Source of the DNA: Mustelus asterias
Lineage: Eukaryota
Reading direction: 5' to 3'
NCBI RefSeq assembly: GCF_964213995.1
Contig: NC_135808.1
Coordinates: 24,366,001-24,430,000, forward strand
Length of the DNA stretch: 64,000 nucleotides
Within the stretch, counting starts at the first letter, position 1, and every line of letters starts with the position of its first letter. The notes beneath the pieces were generated by a model, which did not search any database, was not told where the DNA came from, and saw only the letters and a program-made list of their open reading frames with translations. Shown here one piece after another: positions 61,609 through 62,783 of this stretch. Both the position numbers and the translations under genes were made by a program.

Positions 61609-61872
61609 CGTAAATCACCACCAGTGTCTCCTTCATCCCGCTGTGTTCCATCCGACAGGAATACTCGGCCTGGTCCTCTGGATCAAACTCGACCCATTTC
61701 CGGATCTGGTAGGTGCTGTCGTGATTGGGTAAGATCCCACTGGACAGAGTCTCATCAATCACCACTCCGTCTCTCCACAGATTCACCTCGATGGCCTGAG
61801 AGTAAAACCCGGTGACGACACAGGACAGCCGGTTAGAATCACCCAGACGGGTAAAGGACACGACGGGGGCAA
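61609..61872 (-). CDS. Copy D exon 4, alpha3 Ig C1 domain
   Basis: VAPVVSFTRLGDSNRLSCVVTGFYSQAIEVNLW...YSCRMEHSGMKETLVVIY; 264 nt, in frame with exons 3 and 5. Confidence 0.93.
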
Positions 61873-61934
61873 CTGATAGAGAAAGAAAGAGGAGTCAGTA
61901 CAAGAACCTCGAGATAGAGAGTCCCGGCATCACC

Positions 61935-62513
61935 CCCTTCACCGACTCTCACTCCCCCCTCACTCAACAACTCTCACTCCCCCCCTCACTCACCGACTCT
62001 CACTCCCCCCTCACTCACCGACTCTCACTCCCCCCCTCACTCACCGACTCTCACTCCCCCCCCTCACTCACCGACTCTCACTCCCCCCCTCACTCACCAA
62101 CTCTCACTCCCCCCTAACTCAACGACTCTCACTCCCCCCCCCTCACTCACCGACTCTCAGTCCCCCCTCACTCACCGACTCTCACTCCCCCCCTCACTCA
62201 CCGACTCTCACTCCCCCCCTCACTCACCGACTCTCACTCCCCCCTCACTCACCGACTCTCACTCCCCCCTCACTCACCGACTCTCACTCCCCCCTCACTC
62301 ACCGACTCTCACTCCCCCCCTCACTCACCGACTCTCACTCCCCCCCTCACTCACTGACTCTCACTCCCCCCCTCACTCACCGACTCTCACACCCCCCCTC
62401 ACTCACCGACTCTCACTCCCCCCCTCACTCACCGACTCTCACTCCCCCCTCACTCACCGACTCTCACTCCCCCCTCTCTCACCGACTCTCACTCCCCCCT
62501 CACTCACCGACTC
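61935..62513. repeat. ~25-bp splice-donor minisatellite in intron 3 of copy D
   Basis: Same unit as 22335-24268; about 22-23 copies. Confidence 0.97.
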
Positions 62514-62783
62514 CCAGCTGTTGCTGTCCATATTCCAAGTAGATCTTCAGCCATTCAATGCACTCCTGCTCCAGGTAAAACTTCCACTGCTGATTATCCC
62601 AGGCCCTGATTTGTTGCCACCACGTCATGGTGTTCTCACCCCACGGTACCGGTGTCAGCCATACCTGCTCATCTTTATCAAATGTCATGAAATCTTGCCC
62701 GTCCCAGCCGAACTGTGAGAAGCCACTCGTCATCGAATCATCTGCCAGGTCACAGCCAGTTATCATCTGGAAGAAGTGGATCC
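62508..62783 (-). CDS. Copy D exon 3, alpha2 domain (alpha1 and leader presumably beyond the window)
   Basis: GIHFFQMITGCDL...FGWDGQDFMTF...ENTMTWW...YLEQECIEWLKIYLEYG; 276 nt open frame, CAG acceptor and GTGAGT donor. Confidence 0.95.

What the first reader, a model, noticed from the sequence alone, without database searches (positions are those of the whole stretch)
61609..62783. Mosaic divergence: alpha2 about 61% identical but alpha3 about 94% identical between paralogs, with the switch at the minisatellite intron
Seen (hand alignment): B and D alpha2 share 56 of 92 residues, and their intron 2 sequences look unrelated. Alpha3 differs at only about 5 residues, and its flanking intron sequence is nearly identical. 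TM exons of C and D differ by one residue. Inference: groove exons are being shuffled onto, or excluded from, a homogenised alpha3 cassette by gene conversion or unequal crossover, and the shared 25-bp array is the likely exchange point. Intron-mediated domain shuffling is known for teleost class I genes.
Basis: partly seen in the sequence, partly recalled or inferred. Interest (0 to 1): 0.7.

Follow-up and report, generated by a model that had tools for sequence, protein, structure and literature searches.

The report
Shark MHC: old grooves, shared stalks
In a cluster of about 49 shark immune (MHC class I) genes, the ligand-binding parts are ancient and very different while the stalk and membrane exons are nearly identical, most likely because short stretches are repeatedly copied between genes, a process known from mammals; the tandem repeat marks one edge of the copied patch but probably does not cause it.

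Summary
Observation confirmed. Genes B and D share 56/92 alpha2 residues (dS 0.98) but 83/88 alpha3 residues (dS 0.034; Fisher p 6e-10), so selection on the protein alone does not explain it.

The window is part of a 49-copy shark class Ib cluster, most likely UBA. D's groove groups with carpet-shark orthologues (100/99), while its alpha3 groups with its own species' paralogues (AU p 1e-4).

The homogenised DNA is a bounded island: array, alpha3 and about 80 nt of intron 4. The TM exon is a second island. Sequence on both sides of the alpha3 island shares one history. This points to patchwise interlocus gene conversion, not to grooves crossed onto a 3' cassette.

The 25-bp array fills intron 3, is specific to the cluster and copies the exon/donor junction. 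It is not supported as the exchange point: recent tracts lie mid-exon, an array-less gene was converted, there is no polarity, and the TM island lacks this array.

Alpha3 homogenisation is published for mammals and newts. I found no report for sharks, but two key shark papers were unreadable. B is a pseudogene and C is only a TM-plus-tail fragment.

The parts
62508..62783 (-). Gene D alpha2 exon, 276 nt, with a one-codon insertion shared with carpet-shark orthologues. D's alpha1 exon lies just beyond the window (C8:24430162-24430422).
61939..62513 (-). Gene D 25-26-bp array, 22 units. The unit is the last ~8 nt of alpha2 plus the splice donor and G run. It forms the 5' edge of the homogenised island.
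61873..61938 (-). Unique 3' end of intron 3; 96% mean identity between groove sublineages
61609..61872 (-). Gene D alpha3 exon, core of conversion island 1
61522..61608 (-). First ~87 nt of intron 4, the 3' halo of the island; identity drops beyond it
58838..58942 (-). Gene D transmembrane exon, core of a second homogenised island (about 50 nt upstream to about 100 nt downstream)
56992..58693 (.). A different 25-bp array downstream of D's TM exon; among 26 TM loci printed it was seen only in D and its duplicate L065, with a 4.6-unit remnant in fragment C
42896..43000 (-). 'C': orphan TM exon followed by tail-region homology; no alpha2 or alpha3 exon between it and D's tail
24868..25127 (-). 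Gene B alpha1 exon, 260 nt; 1-nt deletion and in-frame stop (pseudogene)
24261..24533 (-). Gene B alpha2 exon, 273 nt
22336..24269 (-). Gene B 25-bp array, 76 units
22005..22269 (-). Gene B alpha3 exon, 265 nt with a 1-nt insertion; 97% identical to D
21918..22004 (-). Gene B intron 4 halo, ending at a SINE-like insertion specific to B's groove sublineage

Best explanation
These are paralogues of a roughly 49-copy shark nonclassical MHC class I cluster (likely UBA) whose alpha3 and transmembrane exons, each with a short intron halo, are kept near-identical, most likely by repeated short-tract gene conversion between loci, while the groove exons keep ancient separate lineages. Shown: the synonymous drop, the bounded islands, the incongruent trees and individual recent tracts. 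Inferred: purifying selection on alpha3 (beta2m/CD8 contacts, recalled) and on TM keeps these exons alike enough to pair, so conversion continues there and drags 50-100 nt of intron along. Grooves are inferred to have escaped because selection removed converted grooves until they became too divergent to pair, and introns because insertions broke homology. The array likely arose by duplication of the alpha2/donor junction and spread as the island's 5' edge. It may lengthen the pairing region but is not needed.
For: dS B vs D: alpha1 0.52, alpha2 0.98, alpha3 0.034. Over 990 pairs of 45 genes, mean dS is 0.254, 0.482 and 0.060. Groove tree: D and its duplicate join zebra- and epaulette-shark proteins at 100/99. 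Alpha3 tree: D sits among its own species' paralogues and those two proteins among carpet sharks. AU p 1.1e-4 (alpha3 rejects the D-type clade) and 0.004 (groove rejects a one-species clade). DNA trees of 19 genes reject each other: p 3e-4 and <1e-50. D alpha3 is 94% identical to B but 75-83% to the 6 orthologue proteins. Profile over 91 between-sublineage pairs: alpha2 0.65-0.88, intron 3 end 0.96, alpha3 0.94-0.99, intron 4 0.94-0.96 for 60 nt, 0.87 at 61-80 nt, then 0.71 and falling. TM island: 0.95-1.00 over 200 nt, 0.73 at 75-100 nt upstream (289 pairs). Mantel on 18 non-redundant genes: intron 2 with distal intron 4 r 0.56 p 0.003; groove with distal intron 4 r 0.38 p 0.035; groove with island r 0.09 p 0.32. 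In 15 disjoint recent duplicate pairs the island differs more than its flanks, 49/5860 against 132/23909, p 0.01. L049/L059 have 5 differences within 29 nt mid-exon against 1/1511 in flanks. Broken genes such as B share the island.
Against: A PHI-like test found no spatial clustering: 241 of 1176 site pairs were incompatible at all distances, p 0.66. This fits very short tracts but also recurrent mutation. The excess in recent pairs is modest and comes from 3 of 15 pairs. The island tree is nearly star-like (1 of 16 branches starred), so donors cannot be assigned. Only 5 of 39 genes have their nearest island in another sublineage. D is a long branch in the DNA groove tree. Alpha3 is also strongly conserved between species (87-91% to small-spotted catshark), so selection contributes. 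Non-reciprocity was not observed: one assembly, no pedigree. GC3 is the same in all three exons (0.66-0.69), so there is no sign of GC-biased conversion.
Confidence: 0.86

Rival explanations
1. The 25-bp array is a recombination hotspot that initiates conversion running into alpha3 and so sets where homogenisation happens.
For: The array is in intron 3 of 42 of 47 genes with alpha2 located. All 358 exact genome-wide matches of a 43-nt probe lie in intron 3 of cluster genes. The 5' boundary is sharp at the array. Ancient-groove D carries the same unit. Contigs of three other coded organisms run from alpha3 or intron 3 into the array. The classical-like pair also has a different GC-rich array in intron 3.
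Against: The 5 array-less genes are as close to the cluster majority (6-8 differences) as the rest (median 7). Array-less L047 lost three group-specific variants while keeping two between them. Identity is highest at the far end of alpha3 (0.99). The clearest recent tract lies about 130 nt from the array, with identical sequence in between. The TM island lacks this array. In the classical-like pair the switch lies inside alpha1. Intron 3 is almost all array, so the coincidence is forced.
Confidence: 0.15
2. Single unequal crossovers in intron 3 join old groove exons to one recently spread alpha3-TM-tail cassette (domain shuffling).
For: Alpha3 and TM are both near-identical across genes. The cluster has large recent segmental duplicates, so unequal crossing-over does occur.
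Against: Intron 4 between the two islands is divergent and follows the groove lineage. B's intron 4 is 96-97% identical over 1.27 kb to 7 of the 8 other genes of its groove group (and to L036, whose groove was not fetched), but matches D well for only 87 nt. Mantel tests link both flanks.
Confidence: 0.04
3. No exchange: birth-and-death duplication with strong purifying selection on alpha3 and diversifying selection on the groove.
For: Alpha3 is conserved across sharks at 75-91%. The PHI-like test is not significant.
Against: Synonymous sites and 60-80 nt of non-coding flank are homogenised too. D's alpha3 is closer to a pseudogene paralogue than to its orthologues. Groove dS reaches 1 or more.
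Confidence: 0.06
4. Assembly artefact: collapsed or cross-polished alpha3 exons.
For: The copies are highly similar and lie in a duplicated region.
Against: There are 39 distinct island haplotypes among 49 copies. The islands are only about 0.4 kb. The zebra-shark orthologue shows the same pattern: alpha3 78-79/87 against groove 81-92 of about 177 to 3 paralogues.
Confidence: 0.02

Closest known systems
[quoted passage not shown]
   Same: An old conserved groove lineage whose orthology is hidden because alpha3 is homogenised within each species; mosaic short tracts rather than exon swaps.
   Different: Here about 49 loci, deeper groove divergence (dS about 1 or more), intron halos and a second TM island mapped, and an exon-junction array at the 5' edge.
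Gene conversion in newt MHC-I (PMC12863176; passages read)
   Same: Conversion tends to be more common in alpha3; short alpha3 branches; genes cluster by species.
   Different: In the passages read the analysis used coding sequences, with no intron boundaries or repeats.
Shark class Ib UBA cluster (Verissimo 2023, PMC10751288, section 9 and passages; PMC12562908 passages)
   Same: Multicopy cluster away from the class Ia region, flanked by c4 and rxrb; described as derived from UAA.
   Different: The passages read do not treat domain-level conversion, a conserved sublineage or the array. Almeida 2020 and 2021 and supplements were not seen.
Teleost classical class I alpha1/alpha2 shuffling in intron 2 (PMC6523485; passages read)
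   Same: Ancient domain lineages combined with similar downstream domains.
   Different: Allelic, at one locus, through a long intron 2. Here it is inter-locus, alpha1 and alpha2 travel together (dS rank correlation 0.60), and the tract is bounded on both sides.
Peaks of divergence under gene conversion, e.g. red/green opsins (PMC3924837; passages read)
   Same: Conversion continues until substitutions or insertions break pairing; selection protects functional differences.
   Different: Here most of the gene has escaped and only conserved exons remain as islands of identity.

Membership tests
MHC class I heavy chain | alpha1, alpha2, alpha3 and TM exons with phase-1 introns; homology to solved class I structures | tested here: met
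   Exons of 261, 273-276, 264 and 105 nt with GT-AG ends; best PDB match 6lup_A, E 4.8e-23 (alpha2) and 2.5e-19 (alpha1)
Shark class Ib UBA | multicopy cluster away from the class Ia region | tested here: met
   49 alpha3 exons at C8:21.6-24.7 Mb; proteasome-subunit hits at 41.28-41.68 Mb around the classical-like L080
Shark class Ib UBA | flanked by c4 and rxrb (PMC10751288) | tested here: met
   Family-level only: thioester-domain gene at 21.03-21.05 Mb and a weak RXR AF1 hit at 26.06 Mb, E 8.9e-4; exact gene names not confirmed
Shark class Ib UBA | groups with reference UBA sequences | tested here: inconclusive
   Groups (100/100) with nurse-shark O19479 and horn-shark O19480, apart from the classical-like set; that these clones are UBA is recalled, not read
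Nonclassical class I | loss of peptide-terminus anchoring residues | tested here: inconclusive
   Against 6lup, D has F for Y59 and W for K146 but keeps Y7, R84, T143, W147, Y159 and Y171 (alignments; numbering recalled)
Nonclassical class I | low polymorphism and restricted expression | not tested
   One assembly only; no RNA evidence was obtained
Interlocus gene conversion (concerted evolution) | synonymous and non-coding sites homogenised in a bounded tract | tested here: met
Interlocus gene conversion (concerted evolution) | paralogues closer than orthologues inside the tract, the reverse outside | tested here: met
   (proteins only across species)
Interlocus gene conversion (concerted evolution) | both flanks share one history | tested here: met
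   Mantel r 0.56, p 0.003
Interlocus gene conversion (concerted evolution) | spatially clustered compatible sites | tested here: inconclusive
   PHI-like p 0.66; single clustered tracts seen
Interlocus gene conversion (concerted evolution) | non-reciprocal transfer | not testable with these tools
   needs meiotic products or pedigrees
Teleost-type intron-2 domain shuffling | allelic crossover in a long intron 2 giving new alpha1/alpha2 pairs | tested here: not met
   Intron 2 is 141-1652 nt; alpha1 and alpha2 distances correlate; the exchange is bounded on both sides
Recombinogenic minisatellite hotspot | exchange depends on the array and decays away from it | tested here: not met
   Array-less genes equally homogenised, one converted; no decay across alpha3
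Recombinogenic minisatellite hotspot | raised crossover or break frequency at the array | not testable with these tools
   needs sperm typing or break mapping

The most novel reading that the evidence does not exclude
The exon-junction array is a lineage-specific device that widens the pairing surface for alpha3 conversion and walls it off exactly at the alpha2 exon end. It lets a groove lineage as old as the split of ground sharks and carpet sharks (gene D, tryptophan-rich, likely with a dedicated ligand) keep being refitted with its species' current alpha3 and membrane parts.
Probability: 0.15. Interest if true: 0.72.

Novelty: new member of a known kind. Interest (0 to 1): 0.42.

Why it matters
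[quoted passage not shown] It warns that alpha3-based or full-length trees hide orthology among shark class Ib genes. It also exposes one such hidden orthologue: gene D's groove, shared with five carpet-shark species, a candidate for a fixed, specialised ligand like HLA-E or XNC10.

Tried and rejected
PHI-like recombination test: not significant. GC3 comparison: no sign of biased conversion. Island distance against physical distance: r 0.13, p 0.18. The first island alignment had an end-gap artefact in its first 12 columns and was redone; counts come from then on. The 12 pairs were hand-picked, so a rule-based set of 15 disjoint pairs was used for the test. A groove search with the zebra-shark orthologue returned 5 of 73 candidates and no new orthologue; four more came from cluster look-up, so absence in catsharks, horn shark or lamniforms is not shown. 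Expression of D was not obtained. Almeida 2020 and 2021 were not held. Two look-ups of earlier findings were empty. Literature searches gave no report of this in sharks (listings only, subscription papers missing). No fold or complex was run, since none would bear on the claim. Four of 49 genes lacked alpha1 or alpha2 in the fetched stretch and were left out of dS and trees. The TM profile used 26 of the 30 loci fetched, from 40 scored of 53 candidates.

Full report
Observation. On the minus strand D has alpha2 at 62508-62783, a 635-nt intron 3 that is almost all 25-26-bp array, alpha3 at 61609-61872 and TM at 58838-58942; B has the same layout at 22005-25127. Synonymous differences are 28 of 52 sites in alpha2 and 2 of 60 in alpha3 (dS 0.98 and 0.034, Fisher p 5.7e-10). 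B is a pseudogene, with frameshifts in alpha1 and alpha3 and no TM exon found. C is only a TM-plus-tail fragment.

Context. A search of the own genome found 49 alpha3 exons at C8:21.6-24.7 Mb: 44 whole at 90-100% identity and 5 split by frameshifts. Other lineages match at 58% or less. Near-identical database proteins are labelled Mustelus asterias, on a contig of the same length. The cluster lies between a thioester-domain gene (21.0 Mb) and a weak RXR hit (26.1 Mb), 17 Mb from a proteasome-flanked classical-like gene. This matches the published position of the shark UBA cluster (PMC10751288, section 9). I fetched 10 kb around all 49 copies and two outgroup genes. Of the 45 with alpha1-alpha3 located, 33 have open frames; two of these have a damaged alpha1 donor.

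The pattern is cluster-wide. Mean dS over 990 pairs is 0.254 (alpha1), 0.482 (alpha2) and 0.060 (alpha3). D's alpha2 is at dS 1.0-2.7 from every gene but its own duplicate, while its alpha3 is at 0-0.15 from all. D's groove has orthologues in zebra, whale, epaulette and two bamboo sharks, sharing a one-residue insertion and many diagnostic residues. In the groove tree D joins the zebra- and epaulette-shark proteins at 100/99. In the alpha3 tree D is among its own paralogues and those proteins are among carpet sharks. AU tests reject both alternative clades (p 1.1e-4 and 0.004). The D-type group was named from the shared insertion before the trees were built; the one-species group was tested after seeing them. 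DNA trees of groove and island for 19 genes also reject each other. Selection on the protein cannot make an alpha3 closer to a pseudogene paralogue (94%) than to its orthologues (75-83%).

Shape of the homogenised DNA. Between groove sublineages identity is 0.65-0.88 across alpha2, 0.96 in the last 60 nt of intron 3, 0.94-0.99 across alpha3, about 0.95 for 60 nt of intron 4, and 0.71 by 81-100 nt. Further out, intron 4 follows the groove: B matches 7 of the 8 other genes of its groove group at 96-97% over 1.27 kb but matches D well for only 87 nt. Among 18 non-redundant genes intron 2 correlates with distal intron 4 (r 0.56, p 0.003), while the groove does not correlate with the island (r 0.09). 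The TM exon is a second island with its own halo. One crossover joining a groove to a 3' cassette cannot give this; patch conversion can. Individual tracts are visible. L049 and L059 differ at 1 of 1511 flank sites but at 5 sites within 29 nt in mid-alpha3, one of them shared with another gene group. Over 15 disjoint recent pairs the island differs more than the flanks (0.84% against 0.55%, p 0.01), driven by 3 pairs. Against this reading, a PHI-like test is not significant (p 0.66) and the island tree is star-like.

The array. Its unit is the last ~8 nt of alpha2 plus the donor and a G run, so it likely arose from this junction. All 358 exact matches of a 43-nt probe in the genome lie in intron 3 of cluster genes. 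It is present in 42 of 47 genes and adjoins the island in contigs of three other coded organisms. It is therefore part of the homogenised block and marks its 5' edge. A causal role is not supported. The five array-less genes are as close to the cluster majority as the others. Array-less L047 lost three variants that its four relatives share, while keeping two in between. Identity is highest at the end of alpha3 farthest from the array. The TM island lacks this array. In the classical-like pair L080/L081 the switch lies inside alpha1. A helper role, as extra pairing length, is not excluded.

Mechanism. Shown: bounded exon-centred islands, homogenised at silent and intron sites, with congruent flanks and species-wise alpha3 clustering. 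Inferred: selection keeps alpha3 and TM alike enough to pair, so conversion persists there. Selection against overwritten grooves, and insertions in introns, ended conversion elsewhere, as in the model summarised in PMC3924837 (passages). The 5' half of alpha1 is also more alike among most genes (about 0.89), which suggests partial exchange there.

Comparison. The same phenomenon is published for mammalian exon 4, including the argument for conversion over exon swapping (PMC1403747, abstract and Discussion), and for newts (PMC12863176, passages). Teleost shuffling is allelic and lies in intron 2 (PMC6523485, passages), so it is a different thing. Nine searches showed no report for shark UBA. 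The two Almeida papers most likely to mention it were not held, and supplements were not read, so novelty for sharks is provisional.

Verdict. A real and well-supported case of a known process in a new lineage. The conserved D groove is the most useful by-product. Interest 0.42.

Noticed in passing
window 62508-62783; L070, L065; P0028, P0039, P0053-P0056: Gene D's groove is a conserved sublineage shared with five carpet-shark species: one-residue insertion in the alpha2 helix, extra tryptophans, F for Y59 and W for K146 in D (numbering recalled). Candidate for a specialised ligand.
   Followed up: partly
window 61939-62513 and 22336-24269: Every array unit carries a consensus splice donor. 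Use of a downstream donor would meet a stop codon two codons after the exon end; whether this happens is untested.
   Followed up: no
L080 (C8:41.59 Mb) and L081 (C8:42.40 Mb): Two classical-like genes with identical alpha3, near-identical alpha2, intron 2 and intron 4 (97% over 3.3 kb), but alpha1 at dS 0.89 with the switch inside the exon. L081's groove groups with horn-shark proteins (99/98). L080's alpha1 is 263 nt, apparently frameshifted. Both have a GC-rich 23-bp array in intron 3.
   Followed up: partly
window 42896-43000; also C8:23713288, 21786637, 22523785, 23647824: TM exons with no alpha3 exon within 12 kb upstream (C is one); could serve as alternative 3' ends or conversion donors.
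   Followed up: no
C8:22.58-24.68 Mb: Blocks of several genes recur three to four times as near-identical segmental duplicates (e.g. L038, L048, L058, L076), in both orientations.
   Followed up: partly
C8:32.27-32.80 Mb: A second multicopy cluster of alpha3-like exons at 41-58% identity, possibly UEA; not examined.
   Followed up: no
L051, L061 intron 3: Part of the array is inverted (about 9 units) inside a 5.4-kb intron.
   Followed up: no
window 56992-58693: An unrelated 25-bp array of 68 units downstream of D's TM exon, seen also in L065 and as a remnant in C.
   Followed up: no
window 1-1074, 16769-18082, 28343-29793, 45274-46353: Fragments that look like LINE and Penelope-type retroelements, plus many SINE-like copies, interrupt the introns and intergenic DNA; labels recalled from the translations, not searched.
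   Followed up: no
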